Source: Escherichia coli (GTDB lineage: Bacteria > Pseudomonadota > Gammaproteobacteria > Enterobacterales > Enterobacteriaceae). From it: a stretch of 64,000 nucleotides of DNA. The notes beneath the pieces were generated by a model. That model was not told the origin of the DNA, ran no database searches, and was given only the letters and a program-made list of their open reading frames with translations. Below are positions 3,086 to 14,000 of the stretch, in pieces. Where the stretch lies: NCBI RefSeq assembly GCF_003790525.1, contig NZ_CP033635.1; one strand, written 5' to 3'. Position 1 is the stretch's first letter, and every line of letters starts with the position of its first letter. Made by a program: the position numbers and the translations under genes.

Positions 3086-3285
3086 GAACTGCTCACTGTG
3101 TTAATTCGTGAACTGACCTGGGGGGAATGCGTGGTACCCTGCTGTACGGACTAATCGGAACCTGTCGGTTGAACGGTATCGATCCGGAAGCGTATCTGCG
3201 CCATATCCTGAACGTTCTACCGGAATGGCCTTCCTGCATGGTTGATGAACTCCTGCCATGGAATATGGTGCTCCCATTGGGGTAA
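3086..3285 (+). mobile_element. IS66-family transposase 3' remnant
   Basis: Translation ...GTLLYGLIGTCRLNGIDPEAYLRHILNVLPEWPSCMVDELLPWNMVLPLG* matches the conserved C-terminal end of IS66-family transposases; no intact upstream ORF. Confidence 0.6.
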
Positions 3286-6684: not shown

Positions 6685-6918
6685 TGTTTATCTCTTCTGA
6701 ACCAGGTAACATTAACAGAACATGTTTCAGGATATCCGCGCAGTGCGGAACATTACGGCTCACCACTGTGACGGCGGATCATCGCCACCCAGTATCCGAC
6801 AGACCCCTTACTTTGTTCGTAAACATCCTTCCTGCCCCCCTGAATCTCCAGACAACCAATATCACTTAAATAAGTGATAGTCTTAATACTAGTTTTTAGA
6901 CTAGTCATTGGAGAACAG

Positions 6919-7284
6919 ATGATTGATGTCTTAGGGCCGGAGAAACGCAGACGGCGTACCACACAGGAAAAGATCGCAATTGTTCAGCAGAGTTTTGAAC
7001 CGGGAATGACGGTCTCCCTTGTAGCCCGGCAACACGGTGTGGCAGCCAGCCAGCTATTTCTCTGGCGCAAGCAATACCAGGAGGGAAGTCTTACTGCTGT
7101 GGCCGCAGGAGAACAGGTCGTTCCTGCCTCTGAACTTGCTGCTGCCATGAAGCAGATTAAAGAACTCCAGCGCCTGCTCGGCAAAAAAACGATGGAAAAT
7201 GAACTCCTCAAAGAAGCCGTTGAATATGGACGGGCAAAAAAGTGGATAGCGCACGCGCCCTTATTGCCCGGGGATGGGGAGTAA
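6919..7284 (+). CDS. insC: IS2 transposase OrfA (InsC)
   Basis: [56 protein letters not shown]... is the IS2 OrfA sequence. Confidence 0.9.
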
Positions 7285-8147
7285 GCTTAGTCAGCCGTTG
7301 TCTCCGGGTGTCGCGTGCGCAGTTGCACGTCATTCTCAGACGAACCGATGACTGGATGGATGGCCGCCGCAGTCGTCACACTGATGATACGGATGTGCTT
7401 CTCCGTATACACCATGTTATCGGAGAGCTGCCCACGTATGGTTATCGTCGGGTATGGGCGCTGCTTCGCAGACAGGCAGAACTTGATGGTATGCCTGCGA
7501 TCAATGCCAAACGTGTTTACCGGATCATGCGCCAGAATGCGCTGTTGCTTGAGCGAAAACCTGCTGTACCGCCATCGAAACGGGCACATACAGGCAGAGT
7601 GGCTGTGAAAGAAAGTAATCAGCGATGGTGCTCTGACGGGTTCGAGTTCCGCTGTGATAACGGAGAAAAACTGCGAGTCACGTTCGCGCTGGACTGCTGT
7701 GACCGTGAGGCACTGCACTGGGCGGTCACTACGGGCGGCTTCAACAGTGAAACAGTACAGGACGTCATGCCAGGAGCGGTGGAACGCCGCTTCGGCAACG
7801 ATCTTCCGGCGTCTCCAGTAGAGTGGCTGACGGATAATGGTTCATGCTACCGGGCTAATGAAACACGGCAGTTTGCCCGGATGTTGGGGCTTGAACCGAA
7901 GAGCACGGCGGTGCGGAGTCCGGAGAGTAACGGCATAGCAGAGAGCTTCGTGAAAACGATAAAGCGTGACTACATCAGTATCATGCCTAAACCAGACGGG
8001 TTAACGGCAGCAAAGAACCTTGCAGAGGCGTTCGAGCATTATAACGAATGGCATCCGCATAGTGCACTGGGTTATCGCTCGCCACGGGAATATCTGCGGC
8101 AGCAGGCCAGTAATGGGTTAAGTGATAACAGGTGTCTGGAAATATAG
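7242..8147 (+). CDS. insD: IS2 transposase OrfB (InsD)
   Basis: 301-aa ORF with integrase-core catalytic region, overlapping orfA in the -1 frame as in IS3-family elements. Confidence 0.9.
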
Positions 8148-8199
8148 GGGCAAATCCACCTGAATCTGAGGCAGCACCTGGCACGGCTGGGACGGAAGT

Positions 8200-8441
8200 C
8201 GCTGTCGTTTTCAAAATCGGTGGAGCTGCATGACAAAGTCATCAGGCATTATCTGAACATAAAACACTATCAATAAGTTGGAGTCATTACCGTGTTCCCG
8301 ACAGACGACTCGGTGAAAAAAGTGGTGTGGCTGGCAATCCAGTCTGCGTCCCAGAAATGGACGATGCCGTTGAAGGACTGGCGAATGGCAATGAGCCGCT
8401 TTATTATCGAGTTCGGTGACCGCCTGGACGGTCACTTCTGA
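8200..8441 (+). mobile_element. IS256-family transposase 3' remnant
   Basis: Translation FPTDDSVKKVVWLAIQSASQKWTMPLKDWRMAMSRFIIEFGDRLDGHF* matches the conserved C-terminal tail of IS256-family transposases; only this tail is present, immediately right of IS2. Confidence 0.5.
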
Positions 8442-8473
8442 GAAAAGGCATTTACACAGAATCCTAAACAGGC

Positions 8474-9211
8474 TCATGTACAGCGCTGTACCGGGCAATG
8501 GGTAATACCGGTCACAACCGGTAACCCCAGAGACAATGCAACTGTTTTTAACGCAATATACTGGCCGGATGTATCACCCCGGGCAGCCTGAAAACACCTT
8601 TCCACCCGGCATTGTCCGTCAGCACTTATCACCCGCCATGTCTGTTGCAATAAATCCACCCGTTGCGAACATTCTTCATCAACCGTGGCACTGACCCGTG
8701 GATGGCAAATGCTCGTCTGGCTGAGCAGCAACAGGCATCGCATTGTTGCTCCTCCATGTTGTTCCCGCAACCAGCGTAATACCACCGGTGGTGCTGGACT
8801 GGCCGTGTGATTACGTTCAGTAATACGCTCGTGCACCTGTCGGTAAAAGGAAGTACAGAATGCATGAATCTGTTGTCCGTTGATGTTTCCTTCTGCCGAA
8901 TGGAGTGTGAAGTGGACGGCCAGCAGACGCGGCCAGTGATCCACCGCCTGCTGAATAAAACGCCGGATTTCCACCGGCTCTGAAAGTACGGTTTCGGTTA
9001 TTTGCACGATTTGATCCCCTTGAATGTTGCTGAACCGGTGTCGGTACGCAGGAAAGCACGCCGAGACCGGTACGATGCCTGTTACAGCGAAGAACGAGGA
9101 ATGACAGACGGGGGCAGCAGGTCGCCAGCACCAGGGACAGGGCTGATTTCCACAATACCAACGCTGGTATTTTGCACATTGCCAGCGTACCGGCATTACA
9201 ACACGTTTCAT
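8474..9211 (-). CDS. YagK/YfjJ-like (inovirus Gp2-like) protein, third tandem copy; possibly degenerate
   Basis: Central region (RLLAVHFTLH...NGQQIHAFCTSFYRQV...) parallels the two upstream paralogs; an internal Met at 9211 would overlap the alpA-like stop (ATGA). The N-terminal region is Cys/Trp-rich and atypical, so a frameshifted pseudogene is possible. Confidence 0.35.
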   Translation of the reverse strand: MKRVVMPVRWQCAKYQRWYCGNQPCPWCWRPAAPVCHSSFFAVTGIVPVSACFPAYRHRFSNIQGDQIVQITETVLSEPVEIRRFIQQAVDHWPRLLAVHFTLHSAEGNINGQQIHAFCTSFYRQVHERITERNHTASPAPPVVLRWLREQHGGATMRCLLLLSQTSICHPRVSATVDEECSQRVDLLQQTWRVISADGQCRVERCFQAARGDTSGQYIALKTVALSLGLPVVTGITHCPVQRCT

Positions 9212-9444
9212 GCTGCTGCCCCTCGTGATGCCTCGATTCGTTGCTGCATCCACTGCTCCACTTCACTTTTGTACCAGCGGCTGCTGCGCCCCAGTTTGAT
9301 GGGTTTAGGGAAATGGCCTTCACTGATCAGCTTGTAAAACCATTTGTCGGTCATACCAGTGAAGCTGGTGATGTAGTTCATGTCGATCAGGGGATCGTCG
9401 GCACGCAGCAATACGCTGTCGTGACCTGTCATTGAGGTCAACAT
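9208..9444 (-). CDS. AlpA-family prophage regulatory protein
   Basis: Contains ...FTGMTDKWFYKLISEGHFPKPIKLGRSSRWYKSEVEQWMQQRIEASRG, the typical AlpA-like helix-turn-helix of integrative islands. The true start is probably the internal Met at 9381. Confidence 0.7.
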   Translation of the reverse strand: MLTSMTGHDSVLLRADDPLIDMNYITSFTGMTDKWFYKLISEGHFPKPIKLGRSSRWYKSEVEQWMQQRIEASRGAAA

Positions 9445-9512
9445 GGTCAGAATGTCCTCTGTGAGATTTATGAATGTTGGGCAAATGCGGGTGAATCTGC
9501 TGAGCTGAGCTT

Positions 9513-10115
9513 TCAGAGCTGGCCTGCTACGGGATACCAGGGATTACCGGCGAGGTAACGGGCTTCCGGATCGCGCACACCACGACGATCGCGGGCGAAA
9601 TCACTGAACGCCCATATCAGCTCTTTGAGTCTCTCTTCGCAGTCCGGTGAACAACTGTCCAGCACCACATCCCGGGTTATCTGTTTCTGGTACGGTGCCG
9701 CTTCACCCGGTGAGGCGAAGCCCAGCACGTTGCTCCAGGCATCCAGAATCAGCCGATCCAGTTCAGGGCCGTCGAAATACTCCTGCCTGACGCACAGCAC
9801 CACGTGGTATTCCGGCTTTTCAGGATGACGTGTCAGGAGCCAGCAGAGGTCACGTCCGGGGGTTGCATTCATCAGGTCACTGACGGTTTCAATAAAGGCC
9901 ATACCGAACCAGGTCCTGCGGCTGCTGAAGGTATTATCGGGTTCCCACGGCAGACGAAGCAGGATACGTCGTATCCGGGAGCCGGACTGCTCACGCAGCG
10001 CACGGTCAAGAACGCCAATAACTTTGTTCTGATACGAGGGCCAGAAGGGTGCCATGCTGTCGTCGAAATAAGAGAAAGTATTCACAGGATATGCTCCGTT
10101 ATGCGCAGCCCACAA
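9513..10115 (-). CDS. YagK/YfjJ-family (inovirus Gp2-like) protein
   Basis: 200-aa ORF paralogous to 10418..11149; the only in-frame start before an upstream stop is a TTG. Confidence 0.5.
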   Translation of the reverse strand: MWAAHNGAYPVNTFSYFDDSMAPFWPSYQNKVIGVLDRALREQSGSRIRRILLRLPWEPDNTFSSRRTWFGMAFIETVSDLMNATPGRDLCWLLTRHPEKPEYHVVLCVRQEYFDGPELDRLILDAWSNVLGFASPGEAAPYQKQITRDVVLDSCSPDCEERLKELIWAFSDFARDRRGVRDPEARYLAGNPWYPVAGQL

Positions 10116-10417
10116 CGCGTCCTGCCCGGGGATGGATGGGCTGACGGGTTACAGGCTGCGGATGAGGTTGATGGAACAGGTGAAGAACCGACGCTGAGCG
10201 GGAATATCAGGGAAGAACATTCAGGGTGAATGAACTCCGTTGACTTCGGTTCACATCATTAAGCAGGGCGGTAAGGTTTTACCGACAGATTGTTTCCGGG
10301 TGCGGAAGCAGATACCGCTGCTGACTTCATGACGGGTTATCAGAATACGGGATAAGGGCATTGGCTGACTCTCTTACCGTGGCATAAGTTCAGGTACCGG
10401 ATACCGTTTTACCGACC

Positions 10418-11149
10418 TCACCTGCCATCCAGCAAACGCCCCGGCCCACGGCTGCAACCATAATTACGCTGACCGGAACCATTATGCTGCTTCGTTTTAT
10501 TTTTCACGAGATAACTGGCTCTGTTCCTGGCTTTCTGCATCGCTGCCACATCACCACGCTTGATCCAGAGAACAGCGGCTTCACCCGGCTTTTTTTCTGA
10601 AGCCTTCCTGGTATCAGAACATCCACCCGACAAAGGCGTGTCATCGGAAGAAGGGCGAGCATCAGACGATGCTGGTTTACGAAAAGGCTTCCACCTGGAA
10701 AAATGGACCAGGCCATCGCCTTGCCAGGGCTCAAGATGCAGAGCGCTGCACCATGCCTCCTGGATCATCGCCGCCAGCGAAGACGGTTCGCTGAAATCCC
10801 CGAGCGAGCACCAGGTATCTTTGTTGAGCAGCAATATCACGTGATAATGTTTCCTGTTTTCTTCCTCTCCGAACTCCCGGCACCAGAAATAACGCAGGCT
10901 GGTTGCATGCACACGCTGACTGGCACGTCGCTTATGCTGCTGGTAAGCCTGGATTTTGGCTTTCAGGGATTCGAAAAAACGAGAAATCACCGCTGAATCC
11001 GGATCGGGATCCATGATGGTGACAGGCATATACTCAGGGAAACGTAAATCCACCCGGATTAACGAGACGGCACGGTGCTGCGACAGGGCACTGTCGAGAA
11101 GGCTGTCAAAACGGGATAACCAGTAAGCATTGTGTATTGGTTGATTCAT
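10418..11149 (-). CDS. YagK/YfjJ-family (inovirus Gp2-like) protein
   Basis: 243-aa ORF with N-terminal ...AVSLIRVDLRFPEYM... motif recalled from CP4-57 YfjJ / CP4-6 YagK. Confidence 0.55.
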   Translation of the reverse strand: MNQPIHNAYWLSRFDSLLDSALSQHRAVSLIRVDLRFPEYMPVTIMDPDPDSAVISRFFESLKAKIQAYQQHKRRASQRVHATSLRYFWCREFGEEENRKHYHVILLLNKDTWCSLGDFSEPSSLAAMIQEAWCSALHLEPWQGDGLVHFSRWKPFRKPASSDARPSSDDTPLSGGCSDTRKASEKKPGEAAVLWIKRGDVAAMQKARNRASYLVKNKTKQHNGSGQRNYGCSRGPGRLLDGR

Positions 11150-11209
11150 GATGAGAGATCTCCGTTGATTTGGATTGACTTCACATCATTAATCACCGCG
11201 GTAAAACTT

Positions 11210-12720
11210 TACGGCATCATGTCATTAAGCAATGCTACAACTCTCTGATTAAGAGTGATTGAAACGGAACAAACCATCCCGGAACGAAAAGATAATCCTG
11301 CACACAGCAGCAAAACACGCAACAACAGCATGAATGGATTTAAAAACGACATGGACGACGAGAAAAGCCTGAAGGGAAAAGGATCCACAGAACATTCGAA
11401 CAAAACACCAGAAACGCAACCAGAACGCTTCCTGGCAATGCAAATCAACAACAACACCAAAACCTACAGCTTAATCACACAACTCAATCACGAATGCGAA
11501 TGACACGTTTAAAACCTGTTTACAGATAACGTCGTAACAAGATCATCCCCATCAGAATCGATTTTCTTATCTTGAGTATGTTACTTTTCAACATACCTAA
11601 ACGATTAACCACCGATAACGTAAATCTCATCTGAATCAAAACACCAAAACCAATCATCACGTTTTCGACAGAAGAAAAACACCACATCATGACAAAAAGA
11701 ATGACCTTACACGGAAAAGAAAAACGTCAGGAATCGTTAATGCATACCTCAATCTGATTGTTATCAAAACATCCAGAAAGTCGTTTAACAGAATCGTCGT
11801 AAGCACATCGAAAAGAACGTCAGATCACCTCAGGAAAGTTCGGGTTGATTTAGCGTAAAGATACTTTTCTCAGCTTAACGTCGAAACACAAACCAAAAAC
11901 CACAAACAACCAAAGCTCAGGAAAGGTTAAACGTCACATCAGTAAAATCGAATAGCAGATTGATTGCTTAAACAGGAAGGATTGTTTTACAGCAGCATTA
12001 AACTGATTTAGTTAACGTAAAATCAGAACTGACAGGTTTACTAACTTGGATGTGTATCAGTTCAAAAATGTGTACAGCAATGCGTAATGAAACACATTTA
12101 AAGGAGATTAATGGGAAAAGTGTGTAAATGCGTAAACATGCACTAATGAATCACTGAAGGAATACATACAAAACGACTTAATGAAAACATAAAAGGACCT
12201 AATGGAAAAGGTGTATATAATACCATATCCGACATTCTCAACATCTTAAGACATCCATGCAGACTGAATGTTGGTTTCAGTTTTTCACGGTAAGCATGAA
12301 TCTTTTCTGTTCAAAAGCAGAGCAGATTTACTCTGGAATTATTTTTCTTACTCCGTATTCTGTACAGCAAAAACTTGTGCTAACTTTACAGCAAACCATC
12401 ATAATCAGCGTCTGTAGTCCCATCGCTTTACCCCATGAAAGTGAATCCATATGATGCGAGAGAGATAAGTCATCGTATCCGGTAAACACTGCTAACCATA
12501 ACATAAGATCATTCAGTCAGTTTTATCTCTGAACTGACGATTATGGCATGCTCATTTATATGGCTCACAGAGGAGTGTTATTATCTGTAAGCTTTAATCA
12601 TCAAATCACATGACCATACCAAACTGGCGCTATATCAGCTCATTTGACACCCCTTCCCTTTAGATTTCTTTATGTGTTTTTTGTCGATAATTAAAATGTA
12701 ATATGAATTTAATATTTTTA
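11210..12720 (+). other. ~1.5 kb non-coding, strand-asymmetric A-rich tract
   Basis: No ORF of 60 aa or more between 11503 and 12257 in any frame; hand counts on sampled 60-nt blocks give roughly 38-45% A versus 12-23% T on the + strand. Confidence 0.6.
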
Positions 12721-12722
12721 CA

Positions 12723-13946
12723 TCATAAACACCATTTAAAACCATTATCCTGAACATCATACAACAATATATTTTTACTAAAGCATGAATTGTATATTTC
12801 TATTAATTCAGGAAAATTATCAGGATTCACCTTTAAATTCACCTGAATGTTACGCCTAATTTCACCCAGCAGTTTTTCATGCGTGAATTTTATTATTTCT
12901 TTATCATAATCTATAAATTCACACATGTTTTTTATGAATTCAAACCCTTTTCCTGTATACAGTTTGATGAATGCCACAAGAGCAAACATTTCAAGATGCA
13001 GCCATAATGCCACGTGAGTTTTTCGCAAAGTATAAAAAATTGAATTCACCTCTTTTTTACTTATTGCTCTTTTGTACTGTGAGTGTGCCAGATTCAGTAG
13101 TGGCAATTCTCTCTCGATAAATGAAAGTGAAAAAGGCGGGTAAATTGATGTCGGAAATATTTTAGGTCTTATGATATTTTCTATTTCCACCATAAATCTA
13201 TCCATAGAAAGAAAATCATTTTCTTTTTTTATTCTGGTATAGAGACCGCCTTTATTTCTTACTGCGACTTTTTTTCGTGCTACCCCCCCCAACACTTCCT
13301 CTAATTGTTTATTTATCTTCGTATCATTAAATACAACCATTCTTCTTATCATCCTGGGAAGGATGATAATATCAGAGCTTGAATCACTTGAACGGTAATT
13401 ATTATTGATCCATGCAACTTCAAGTTGAAGTATCGGAACATTAAATTCTCTGGGGTTAATAACTCTCTGATATTGTTTTTTGTATGCGTTTTTATTAAGA
13501 TATTCTCTGCTGTAGAGAAACTTATAGCAATATAATCTGACAATATCCTTTATGTAAGATTTAAATGAGTCACCTGTAACAGATATATTTTTTCTGCTCA
13601 GTAACTCCTGTGTATTGAGCCATTCCCGTGACCGGAGTACTCCCTTATGAAGACTTTTTCTTACTTGCATTGAACTGCGCAATTGATGTAATATTTTTGC
13701 GTCCTCAACAATTCTCTTTCCCGTTTGATTTCTTGCAGCATCTATTACTCTGTCAAATATCTCCCGGTCCAGACTTTTGTCATATTTACTGATTATACGA
13801 CAAATATTCCTGACCCGACGGTTCTCTTTATTTCGTTTCCATAACTGATAATGATCATCACATAACCTCAGGGCATTTGCCTCATCAAATTCTGAAACAG
13901 GATTGCTGCATTTTTTATTCCGACAGATACCTTTGTTTTTAGCCAT
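12723..13946 (-). CDS. hypothetical protein, 407 aa, very low GC, N-terminal Cys/His cluster
   Basis: Long uninterrupted ORF in a region of roughly 30% GC (hand count on sampled blocks); K/N/I-rich; N-terminus GICRNKKCSNP...LCDDHY suggests a zinc-ribbon-like motif. No family recognised. Confidence 0.6.
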   Translation of the reverse strand: MAKNKGICRNKKCSNPVSEFDEANALRLCDDHYQLWKRNKENRRVRNICRIISKYDKSLDREIFDRVIDAARNQTGKRIVEDAKILHQLRSSMQVRKSLHKGVLRSREWLNTQELLSRKNISVTGDSFKSYIKDIVRLYCYKFLYSREYLNKNAYKKQYQRVINPREFNVPILQLEVAWINNNYRSSDSSSDIIILPRMIRRMVVFNDTKINKQLEEVLGGVARKKVAVRNKGGLYTRIKKENDFLSMDRFMVEIENIIRPKIFPTSIYPPFSLSFIERELPLLNLAHSQYKRAISKKEVNSIFYTLRKTHVALWLHLEMFALVAFIKLYTGKGFEFIKNMCEFIDYDKEIIKFTHEKLLGEIRRNIQVNLKVNPDNFPELIEIYNSCFSKNILLYDVQDNGFKWCL

Positions 13947-14000
13947 ACTCTTCTTCCCGTCAATGGAAAATTTTTCACGTCCATATTACCTGACTGAGAG

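What the first reader, a model, noticed from the sequence alone, without database searches (positions are those of the whole stretch)
10231..11215. Conserved ~50-bp block repeated upstream of two YagK/YfjJ-like paralogs
The sequences CTCCGTTGACTTCGGTTCACATCATTAAGCAGGGCGGTAAGGTTTTACCG (from 10231) and CTCCGTTGATTTGGATTGACTTCACATCATTAATCACCGCGGTAAAACTTTACGG (from 11156) share CTCCGTTGA..TTCACATCATTAA..GCGGTAA..TTTACCG. Each lies upstream of a paralog, so the duplication kept a probable promoter or operator, perhaps an AlpA or autoregulatory site.
Basis: seen in the sequence. Interest (0 to 1): 0.4.

Follow-up and report, generated by a model that had tools for sequence, protein, structure and literature searches.

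The report
Shared control block before Rep-like genes
A roughly 65-base stretch occurs twice in this E. coli genomic island, each time ahead of a replication-initiator-like gene. It is kept under selection in thousands of genomes and is most likely a shared control site for those genes, which is useful but fairly ordinary.

Summary
Two minus-strand blocks, A (10219-10282) and B (11144-11212), align at 49 of 64 bases with one 5-base gap. The local score is 29, against 9.8 +/- 1.3 for shuffles. This is the only DNA similarity between the two gene units.

B ends in the ribosome-binding site and ATG of gene 2, a Gp2/YagK-YfjJ protein with an HUH nickase fold. A has lost that start codon (CTG). It lies 134 nt upstream of gene 1, a very remote and probably inactive paralog that is followed by alpA.

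Both blocks occur in about 1,900 E. coli genomes. Both are more conserved than synonymous sites or the flanking non-coding DNA.

Orthologs in six other genera keep a two-part motif, TTWACS-N14-TRTGAR. In seven of them it sits at a fixed 25 nt from the ATG.

No sigma-70 consensus, Rfam family, consensus RNA structure or strong DNA hairpin supports a more specific reading.

My best reading (about 0.45) is a shared operator/promoter-proximal control region of the Rep-like genes. The main rival (about 0.25) is a Rep recognition site or rolling-circle origin. The AlpA link is untested. It is a new member of a known kind and of modest interest.

The parts
11144..11212 (-). Block B, the intact copy. 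Read 5'->3' on the minus strand it contains GTAAAGTTTTAC, the two-part motif TTTACC(11200-11205)-N14-TGTGAA(11180-11185), TTAATGATGTGAA (11180-11192), TCAACGGAG with the Shine-Dalgarno GGAG (11160-11168), and the ATGAAT start of gene 2 (11144-11149).
   Evidence: Found at 3,190 places in E. coli genomes, with an 'inovirus Gp2 family protein' under the match in every listed row. Mean pairwise identity is 0.964, against 0.904 at third codon positions, in loci ascertained through the other block.
10219..10282 (-). Block A, the orphaned copy. It contains GTAAAACCTTAC, within the imperfect palindrome CGGTAAAACCTTACCG (10269-10284). It also contains CTTACC-N14-TGTGAA, TTAATGATGTGAA (10250-10262) and TCAACGGAG (10235-10243). 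CTGAAT (10219-10224) stands where block B has ATGAAT.
   Evidence: Found at 2,495 places in 1,876 E. coli genomes. Pairwise identity is 0.926, against 0.849 at third codon positions and 0.767 in the leader.
10418..11149 (-). Gene 2: a 243-aa inovirus Gp2 / YagK-YfjJ family protein, an HUH-type Rep-like nickase. It carries HYH at residues 101-103, and Y213 and K216 in the motif YLVK.
9513..10085 (-). Gene 1: a 190-aa remote paralog of the Gp2 family. The start is GTG here and ATG in other islands. It has EYH in place of HYH, and no residue aligns with the Tyr/Lys motif, so it is probably not a nickase.
   Evidence: No Pfam or NCBIfam hit. BLASTP against gene 2 gives 24% identity, E 0.002. hhalign against the family gives probability 91%, E 1e-6. 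The start is taken from other islands and the PGAP annotation.
10086..10218 (-). Leader between block A and the gene 1 start. All three frames contain stops. It evolves fast and is replaced by a second leader type with no detectable similarity in other islands.
   Evidence: Pairwise identity 0.767.
9208..9444 (-). alpA: a 78-aa PF05930 excisionase-type HTH regulator lying 68 nt downstream of gene 1. In orthologous islands the pairing Gp2-like gene followed by alpA is conserved.
   Evidence: Gene order.
10283..10417 (-). Spacer between the gene 2 stop and block A. Homology between islands breaks here, at about 10311-10380 on the gene 2 side and about 10308 on the block A side. Other islands carry 3-9 kb of variable cargo plus a third Gp2 paralog at this point.

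Best explanation
The two blocks are two copies of the conserved 5' control region of the island's Rep-like genes (HUH fold, 'inovirus Gp2 / YagK-YfjJ' family).

Copy B is the working original. A two-part DNA motif (TTTACC, 14 bp, TGTGAA) is followed by an A/C-rich stretch, the ribosome-binding site GGAG and the ATG of gene 2.

Copy A is the same region with its start codon decayed to CTG. It now heads the unit 'leader - gene 1 - alpA'. It was probably copied from a gene-2-type 5' end well after the two proteins diverged.

Proposed mechanism (inferred, not shown): one sequence-specific DNA-binding factor recognises the two-part motif in both copies. The motif overlaps a weak, non-consensus promoter. 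The factor thereby switches transcription of the Rep-like genes and of alpA together. The most economical candidates are the Rep-like proteins themselves, in particular the inactive-looking paralog gene 1. AlpA or a helper-phage or host factor is also possible.

In copy B the transcribed part also supplies the ribosome-binding site. It can fold into a hairpin that covers the Shine-Dalgarno sequence and the AUG, which may damp translation.

Shown: the existence and significance of the repeat, purifying selection on both copies, positional conservation of the motif in orthologs, and the HUH fold of gene 2. Inferred: protein binding, promoter activity and the identity of the factor.
For: 1. The repeat is far above chance and is the only DNA similarity between the two units.
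2. Both copies are kept in fixed position and orientation across about 1,900 E. coli genomes. In every one of the 27 loci held that carry both, B precedes A on the same strand.
3. Both copies are under constraint. In loci ascertained through the other block, B has identity 0.964 and A 0.926. Third codon positions give 0.904 and 0.849, and flanking non-coding DNA gives 0.68-0.82. Site-bootstrap P values are 0.0004 and 0.0036.
4. Block A stays conserved while the sequence on both of its sides is replaced. Upstream lies either gene 2 or cargo plus gene 3. Downstream, two leader types show no detectable similarity to each other.
5. Orthologs share a layout of T-tract, TTWACS, an invariant 14-bp spacer of variable sequence, and TRTGAR. 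These are from Rouxiella, Enterobacter, Serratia, Klebsiella, Morganellaceae, Providencia and Brenneria, at about 37-42% protein identity to gene 2. In 7 of 10 the motif is then exactly 25 nt from the ATG. Fixed spacing with free spacer sequence is the signature of a site read by one protein complex.
6. The same motif (TTACCG-N13-TATGAG) precedes a third paralog, gene 3.
7. In about 263 kb of loci, the strict motif was found 9 times against about 0.5 expected. Eight of the nine lie directly upstream of Gp2-type genes.
8. Most islands carry a stem-loop after gene 2 (GGGCGTcagccaACGCCC). Gene 1 and alpA may therefore need their own start signal near block A.
Against: - No sigma-70 consensus promoter is present in either block on either strand. 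The best scores, 6.6-7.9 bits, equal the background median of 6.8.
- The 14-bp gap between the two conserved hexamers is too short for a sigma-70 -35/-10 pair. TGTGAA has G where the essential -11 A would be.
- The alternative upstream pair in block B (TTGCTC ... TAAAGT) has a spacer that varies between 14 and 15 bp among islands.
- No transcription start data exist for this locus.
- No binding factor has been identified.
- Block A's whole length is conserved, including the now useless GGAG. A pure promoter or operator does not obviously require that.
Confidence: 0.45

Rival explanations
1. The blocks are DNA-processing sites for the HUH Rep-like proteins. They would be a double-strand origin, nick site or Rep-binding locus used for rolling-circle replication or mobilisation of the excised island, and not primarily a transcription signal. 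Two direct copies would then bracket gene 2 and the cargo.
For: - From general knowledge, origins of rolling-circle plasmids and of Ff phage lie next to or just upstream of their rep gene.
- The block is the best-conserved non-coding sequence beside these genes.
- It contains a short inverted repeat, CGGTAA-AACC-TTACCG.
- The two-part motif, with a start-to-start distance of about 22 bp (two helical turns), could be a pair of binding repeats.
- The variable cargo lies between copies B and A.
Against: - Single-stranded DNA folding shows no strong hairpin. The z-scores are -0.6 to -2.4 and the stem has only 6 bp.
- The outer palindrome positions vary among islands without compensating changes. 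The palindrome is absent from the orthologs.
- In orthologs the motif keeps a fixed 25-nt distance to the start codon. An origin does not need that.
- The cargo boundaries do not coincide with the blocks. The left boundary lies after the gene 2 stop, not at block B.
- Gene 1, downstream of copy A, lacks the catalytic motifs.
Confidence: 0.25
2. The block acts mainly as RNA. It would be a 5' leader whose hairpin hides the ribosome-binding site and start codon of the Rep-like gene. A tiny upstream ORF (AUG-AUG-UGA, or GUG plus 11 codons ending in AUGA) would couple translation, as in plasmid rep leaders.
For: - Block B RNA folds so that GGAG and the AUG are paired. The free energy is -23.3 kcal/mol, z is -3.97, and 0 of 200 shuffles fold as well.
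- Several orthologs have hairpins of different sequence that pair the Shine-Dalgarno or AUG region, some using G-U pairs. These are Brenneria, Morganellaceae, an E. coli plasmid and L152.
- In B the GUG frame ends in a UGA that overlaps the gene 2 AUG, in 72 of 72 copies.
Against: - RNAalifold finds no consensus structure in 10 orthologs.
- The test of Shine-Dalgarno pairing against shuffles is weak. Only 2 of 10 reach p below 0.05, and the neighbouring alpA controls do as well.
- Natural variants of B break the outer stem without compensation.
- There is no Rfam match.
- Copy A has no start codon to control, yet it is conserved. Its GUG frame stops at codon 3 in 43 of 77 copies.
Confidence: 0.12
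3. Copy A is a functionless relic of a rearrangement. It would look conserved only because these islands spread recently and recombine at shared sequences. Only copy B, the ordinary 5' end of gene 2, would matter.
For: - Copy A has lost its start codon. It is separated from gene 1 by a variable leader.
- Homology breakpoints between islands fall right next to it.
- No promoter consensus is present.
Against: - Copy A is more conserved (0.926) than synonymous sites of the adjacent gene (0.849) and than the leader (0.767). This holds in loci chosen without reference to A. 50 of its 67 sites are invariant.
- It persists at 2,495 places with differing flanks on both sides.
- A and B keep fixed diagnostic differences, so ongoing conversion between them is not the cause.
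Confidence: 0.08

Closest known systems
Autoregulatory Rep-binding elements in the promoters of HUH initiator genes, for example the AAV Rep-binding element in the p5 promoter (from general knowledge)
   Same: A small conserved DNA element lies immediately upstream of an HUH-fold initiator gene and is repeated within the same element. It could serve both gene control and origin recognition. Gene 2's closest structural matches are the parvovirus NS1 and AAV Rep nuclease domains.
   Different: No binding or nicking has been shown here. The motif (TTWACS-N14-TRTGAR) is unrelated to GCTC or ACCA repeats. The proteins consist of a single domain of 190-243 aa with no helicase. The host is a bacterial chromosomal island.
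Double-strand origins of rolling-circle plasmids and Ff phage (pMV158, pT181, pC194, f1 intergenic region; from general knowledge)
   Same: The block lies next to the rep gene, carries a short inverted repeat plus possible binding repeats, and is paired with a family annotated as inovirus gpII-like (PF23343).
   Different: There is no strong hairpin. The palindrome is not conserved in orthologs. The motif sits at a fixed distance from the start codon. The second copy stands in front of a paralog that lacks the catalytic motifs.
Leader-peptide and hairpin control of plasmid rep genes (R1 repA/tap, IncI/IncB repZ/repY; from general knowledge)
   Same: Copy B has a short upstream ORF whose stop overlaps the rep start (AUGA), together with a hairpin that covers the Shine-Dalgarno sequence and the AUG.
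   Different: No antisense promoter faces the leader. There is no covariation support. Copy A has no start codon.
Gp2-like plus AlpA core of tRNA/tmRNA-integrated genomic islands (Pseudomonas islands moved by a jumbo phage, PNAS 2025, PMC12595487; E. coli CP4-57 / CP4-6)
   Same: The gene pair (Gp2-like followed by alpA) is the same, as are the RadC, antirestriction and GTPase neighbours.
   Different: In the passages read, that paper describes the genes but no upstream element. The upstream regions of K-12 yfjJ and yagK do not carry the block.

Membership tests
Sigma-70 promoter | -35 (TTGACA-like) and -10 (TATAAT-like, with A at -11 and T at -7) hexamers spaced 16-18 bp apart | tested here: not met
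   The consensus scan finds nothing in either block. Best position-weight-matrix scores are 6.6-7.9 bits, against a background median of 6.8 for the best site per 380 nt. The conserved hexamers are 14 bp apart, and TGTGAA lacks A-11 and T-7. This does not exclude a weak, activator-dependent promoter.
Sigma-70 promoter | A mapped transcription start site | not testable with these tools
   No 5'-end data were available. A literature search by sequence found nothing relevant.
Known RNA family (Rfam 15) | A covariance-model match at or near the gathering score | tested here: not met
   Scanning 8000-14000 on both strands up to E=1 gave only a chance miRNA hit elsewhere.
Translational-control leader (Shine-Dalgarno-sequestering hairpin) | A stable hairpin that pairs the Shine-Dalgarno sequence and start codon | tested here: inconclusive
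   Block B folds this way with z -3.97. Block A (window copy) and several orthologs are weaker. The accessibility test is no better than for the alpA controls.
Translational-control leader (Shine-Dalgarno-sequestering hairpin) | Structure conserved with compensatory changes among relatives | tested here: not met
   RNAalifold predicts 0 pairs on 10 orthologs. Natural B variants break the outer stem without compensation.
Rolling-circle double-strand origin | Located beside a gene for an HUH initiator with intact catalytic motifs | tested here: met
Rolling-circle double-strand origin | An extrudable inverted repeat that carries the nick site | tested here: inconclusive
   There is only a 6-bp stem with a 4-nt loop. 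DNA-fold z-scores are -0.6 to -2.4. The outer pairs vary without compensation, and the palindrome is not conserved in orthologs.
Rolling-circle double-strand origin | Site-specific nicking and covalent attachment by the initiator | not testable with these tools
   This needs biochemistry.
AlpA operator | A match to a known AlpA recognition sequence | not testable with these tools
   No motif is known to me for the 78-aa PF05930 AlpA. The only defined element, GGGACG, belongs to the unrelated Q-like Pseudomonas AlpA. The strict two-part motif was not found in the K-12 CP4-57 stretch that includes intA, which AlpA activates.
YagK/YfjJ (PF11726, inovirus Gp2) protein family: gene 2 | A Pfam match above the gathering score | tested here: met
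   129.2 bits against a cut-off of 25.8, E 1.9e-37.
YagK/YfjJ (PF11726, inovirus Gp2) protein family: gene 1 | A Pfam match above the gathering score | tested here: not met
   11.6 bits against a cut-off of 25.8, E 0.27. Remote homology is supported only by hhalign, probability 91%, E 1e-6. I therefore call it a divergent relative, not a family member.

The most novel reading that the evidence does not exclude
The blocks are the cognate recognition or nick sites of a family of small HUH Rep-like proteins. This family is part of the conserved core of a very common class of enterobacterial genomic islands. Two or three directly repeated sites per island would let the Rep proteins replicate the excised island. 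They could also release the segment between two sites (a Rep gene plus variable cargo) as a separate circle, which would be a rolling-circle route for exchanging cargo between islands.
Probability: 0.1. Interest if true: 0.7.

Novelty: new member of a known kind. Interest (0 to 1): 0.33.

Why it matters
These islands are the backbone of many E. coli pathogenicity and defence islands. They carry a GTPase, DUF932, antirestriction, RadC and CbtA/CbeA genes, one to three Gp2-like genes, and alpA. How their excision and replication module is switched on is unknown.

A motif shared by all the Rep-like genes and by the unit that includes alpA gives a concrete handle. It names a roughly 60-bp target for footprinting, reporter and nicking assays. 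It also offers a searchable signature, TTWACS-N14-TRTGAR followed by the ribosome-binding site, for finding the control point of such islands in other Enterobacterales.

If it turns out to be only an ordinary operator or 5' region, the gain is modest: better annotation of a widespread island backbone.

Tried and rejected
- **Rfam scan:** no family matched.
- **Sigma-70 promoter:** a consensus scan and my own position-weight matrix, on both strands and in orthologs, gave scores at background. The candidate TTGCTC-15-TAAAGT upstream of B was dropped because its spacer varies between 14 and 15 bp among islands. The reverse-strand candidate TTCACA-16-TAAGGT matches only 8 of 12 positions and is weak in orthologs.
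- **The 'palindrome' as a dimer operator:** the outer positions vary without compensation. Other window matches to the palindrome pattern lie inside ordinary chromosomal genes.
- **Conserved RNA structure:** RNAalifold predicted nothing, and the Shine-Dalgarno accessibility test was weak.
- **Leader peptide:** the GUG frame is closed at codon 3 in 43 of 77 A copies. The upstream ATG found in orthologs is interrupted by stops in Rouxiella, Morganellaceae and Providencia.
- **Leader of A as a decayed N-terminus of a Gp2 gene:** blastn and tblastx found no similarity.
- **Gene 1's own ribosome-binding-site region as a second partial copy of the block:** not above chance.
- **Strong DNA hairpin as an origin signature:** none found.
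- **K-12 yfjJ and yagK upstream regions:** the block is absent.
- **Exact-pattern scan of one genome per species:** apart from hits consistent with chance, only one Enterobacteriaceae MAG carried it. The exact block is therefore essentially confined to Escherichia.
- **Viral contigs:** one hit.
- **Literature searches** by gene name, family name, island gene set and raw sequence: no description of the element.
- **Pseudomonas AlpA binding element:** it belongs to a different protein and is not applicable.
Full report
**What is there**

All genes concerned lie on the minus strand. Reading that strand, the order is:
- a 1.1-kb A-rich region with no convincing gene (11216-12250);
- block B;
- gene 2 (10418-11149, 243 aa);
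- a 135-nt spacer;
- block A;
- a 133-nt leader;
- gene 1 (9513-10085, 190 aa);
- alpA (9208-9444).

The surrounding genes include a 407-aa ORF and a GTPase in the window itself. In matching E. coli records they also include DUF932, antirestriction, RadC and CbtA/YeeU genes. This places the locus in the common CP4-like genomic-island backbone of E. coli.

**Check of the observation**

The two sequences exist, although the quoted strings start 4 nt later than stated.

A local alignment of the two upstream regions gives A 10219-10282 against B 11144-11212. There are 49 identities in 64 aligned positions and one 5-nt gap. The score is 29, against 9.8 +/- 1.3 (maximum 16) in 1000 shuffles. A 21-position pattern from the core occurs twice in the window, with none expected.

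The similarity continues through the Shine-Dalgarno GGAG to the first two codons of gene 2. ATGAAT in B corresponds to CTGAAT in A.

The coding DNA of the two genes is not similar beyond chance.

**The genes**

Gene 2 is a clear member of the YagK/YfjJ ('inovirus Gp2') family. It matches PF11726 at E 1.9e-37 and also PF23343, the Rep ORF2/G2P domain.
- It carries an HUH motif (HYH) and a Tyr...Lys motif. These residues are invariant or nearly so in a 15-member family alignment.
- Its AlphaFold model has pLDDT 82.

Gene 1 has no family hit.
- It shares 24% identity with gene 2 (E 0.002).
- A profile comparison supports remote homology over 113 columns (probability 91%, E 1e-6).
- It has EYH instead of HYH, and nothing aligns with the catalytic Tyr region.

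'Paralogs' is therefore right only in a distant sense, and gene 1 is probably not a nickase.

**Conservation in other islands**

Block A is found at 2,495 places in 1,876 of 5,426 complete E. coli genomes. Block B is found at 3,190 places in 1,894 genomes, and every listed row has an 'inovirus Gp2 family protein' under the match.

A metagenome scan gave 120 further loci. In all 27 loci held that carry both blocks, B comes before A on the same strand.

To avoid ascertainment bias, I measured each block only in loci that were found through the other block.

| Region | Mean pairwise identity |
|---|---|
| Block B | 0.964 |
| Gene 2 third codon positions | 0.904 |
| Non-coding DNA upstream of B | 0.73-0.79 |
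| Block A | 0.926 |
| Gene 1 third codon positions | 0.849 |
| Leader downstream of A | 0.767 |
| DNA upstream of A | 0.68-0.82 |

The site-bootstrap P value is 0.0004 for B and 0.0036 for A. Both copies are therefore under purifying selection, including A, which no longer has a start codon.

**Block A is a separate mosaic unit**

Downstream of A, the leader to gene 1 exists in at least two forms, and the two types compared show no similarity detectable by blastn.

Upstream of A, about half of the paired loci have gene 2 directly, as in this window. The other half have 3-9 kb of variable cargo: IS elements, ireA, a dynamin-like gene, a sugar/nucleoside gene set and others. In all 12 of those loci the cargo is followed by a third 188-aa Gp2 paralog (gene 3) that ends about 55 nt before block A.

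Homology between islands breaks about 10-45 nt upstream of block A and 36-104 nt after the gene 2 stop.

**Age of the repeat**

Orthologs of gene 2 at about 37-42% protein identity keep only a skeleton of the block. A and B are 77% identical although their proteins share only 20-24% identity.

The likeliest history is that block A is a later copy of a gene-2-type 5' end, start codon included, that came to lie ahead of gene 1. It is less likely to be a survivor of the original gene duplication. This is inference.

**The conserved core**

I compared upstream regions of orthologs from Rouxiella, Enterobacter ludwigii, Serratia, a Klebsiella plasmid, Morganellaceae, Providencia, Brenneria and an E. 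coli plasmid. They share:
- a T-tract;
- TTWACS;
- a spacer of exactly 14 bp whose sequence is free;
- TRTGAR(C);
- an A/C-rich stretch and a Shine-Dalgarno sequence;
- in seven of ten cases, exactly 25 nt between the motif and the ATG.

A, B and the gene 3 upstream region fit the same pattern.

In about 263 kb of collected loci, the strict motif occurs 9 times against about 0.5 expected. Eight of the nine are directly upstream of Gp2-type genes. None lies in the K-12 CP4-57 stretch that includes intA. The K-12 yfjJ and yagK genes lack the block.

In these orthologous islands the Gp2-like gene is followed directly by alpA. By analogy, block A heads the unit that includes alpA.

**Mechanism: what the tests say**

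*Promoter.* Neither the consensus scan nor a position-weight matrix finds a sigma-70 promoter above background on either strand. The two conserved hexamers are too close together (14 bp) to be a -35/-10 pair. An upstream candidate pair in B has a spacer that varies among islands.

*RNA element.* There is no Rfam match. Block B RNA folds into a hairpin that pairs GGAG and the AUG (z -3.97), and several orthologs have analogous hairpins. Against this:
- RNAalifold finds no consensus structure.
- A Shine-Dalgarno pairing test is no stronger than for neighbouring alpA genes.
- Natural variants break the outer stem.
- The small upstream frame is closed at codon 3 in most A copies.

*DNA hairpin, as at a rolling-circle origin.* Only a 6-bp stem is present, with no significant folding. 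It is not conserved in orthologs.

What remains robust is a two-part DNA motif with invariant spacing, gene-specific placement and selective constraint. That is the signature of a site read by a protein complex.

**Best reading and rivals**

I take the blocks to be copies of the 5' control region of the Rep-like genes. An operator would overlap a weak promoter and be read by an island factor. The most economical candidates are the Rep-like proteins themselves, including the inactive-looking gene 1 product. Gene 2 and the gene 1-alpA unit would then be switched together (confidence about 0.45).

The main rival is that the same site serves DNA processing by the HUH proteins, as an origin or nick site (about 0.25). 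It is supported by the fold and the intact catalytic motifs. It is weakened by the lack of a hairpin, by the fixed distance to the start codon, and by cargo boundaries that do not coincide with the blocks.

An RNA-level leader (about 0.12) and a functionless relic (about 0.08) are less likely. The AlpA suggestion can be neither supported nor excluded. The only AlpA with a defined binding element is an unrelated Pseudomonas protein.

**Comparison with what is known**

The literature held here describes Gp2-like plus AlpA as core genes of tmRNA/tRNA islands. Searches by name and by sequence found no description of an upstream element.

The closest analogies are Rep-binding elements in the promoters of HUH initiator genes, origins of rolling-circle replicons next to their rep genes, and leader-controlled plasmid rep genes. 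The block meets no defining test of any of these beyond its position next to an HUH gene.

I therefore file it as a new member of a known kind: a conserved cis-acting control block of a mobile-element gene family.

**Verdict**

Interest is modest (0.33). It would be higher only if the origin/cassette reading proves true.

Noticed in passing
window 10283-10417; loci L030, L035, L050, L056, L059, L064, L072, L073, L077, L084, L087, L115, L143, L144: The spacer between gene 2 and block A is a variable-cargo site. About half of the islands carry 3-9 kb here (IS2/IS21/IS3, ireA, a dynamin-like gene, a sugar/nucleoside gene set, unknown ORFs). The cargo is always followed by a third 188-aa Gp2 paralog (MPKSYTPNWFF...) that ends about 55 nt before block A. 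The window has the short form, without cargo or the third paralog.
   Followed up: partly
window 11216-12250: About 1 kb upstream of block B has no convincing gene. The plus strand is 41% A and only 16% G, with scattered AACGTC-type short repeats. The 82-aa ORF annotated here in RefSeq records (11255-11503 in the window) is low-complexity. Gaps of roughly 0.3-1.1 kb upstream of the Gp2 gene also occur in the Rouxiella, Morganellaceae and Brenneria islands.
   Followed up: partly
L003 and three other metagenome loci, from block A's GTG through the leader: In 4 loci, the frame opening at the GTG inside block A runs without a stop through the leader, in frame, into gene 1. A 12-nt deletion removes the TGA seen in other islands. 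In most islands this frame is closed early, so I treated the open frame as chance or decay.
   Followed up: partly
window 10406-10416 and 10276-10286: The 11-mer GTCGGTAAAAC occurs just after the gene 2 stop and again at the 5' edge of block A. In other islands only GTAAAAC is kept at the first site.
   Followed up: partly
loci such as L021, L040 and L045, about 85-105 nt upstream of block A's palindrome: Most islands have a stem-loop, GGGCGTcagccaACGCCC, followed by a weak T-containing tail after gene 2. It may be a terminator. The window's copy is degenerate (GAGAGTCAGCCAATGCCC).
   Followed up: no
window 6874-8147 and 8474-9253: An IS3-family element (two overlapping transposase ORFs) lies just beyond alpA. 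A 259-aa ORF overlaps the alpA 3' end and has no family hit. Related genomes annotate a shorter hypothetical gene or pseudogene there.
   Followed up: no
L144 13493-13518 (+): This is the only strict-motif match (TTAACG-N14-TATGAA) that is not upstream of a Gp2 gene. It lies between the island GTPase gene and an HTH regulator gene. It may be chance, since about 0.5 hits were expected.
   Followed up: no
L145 (Klebsiella plasmid) and L016 (Enterobacter ludwigii): Other genera also carry two Gp2-type genes per island (Gp2 - AlpA - two zinc-ribbon proteins - second Gp2-like - DUF2913). The module also occurs on large plasmids.
   Followed up: no
window 12723-13946 (-): A 407-aa ORF lies between the A-rich region and the GTPase gene and has no Pfam or PHROG match. 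Unannotated ORFs of 319-323 aa occupy the same position in the Rouxiella, Enterobacter, Morganellaceae and Brenneria islands.
   Followed up: no
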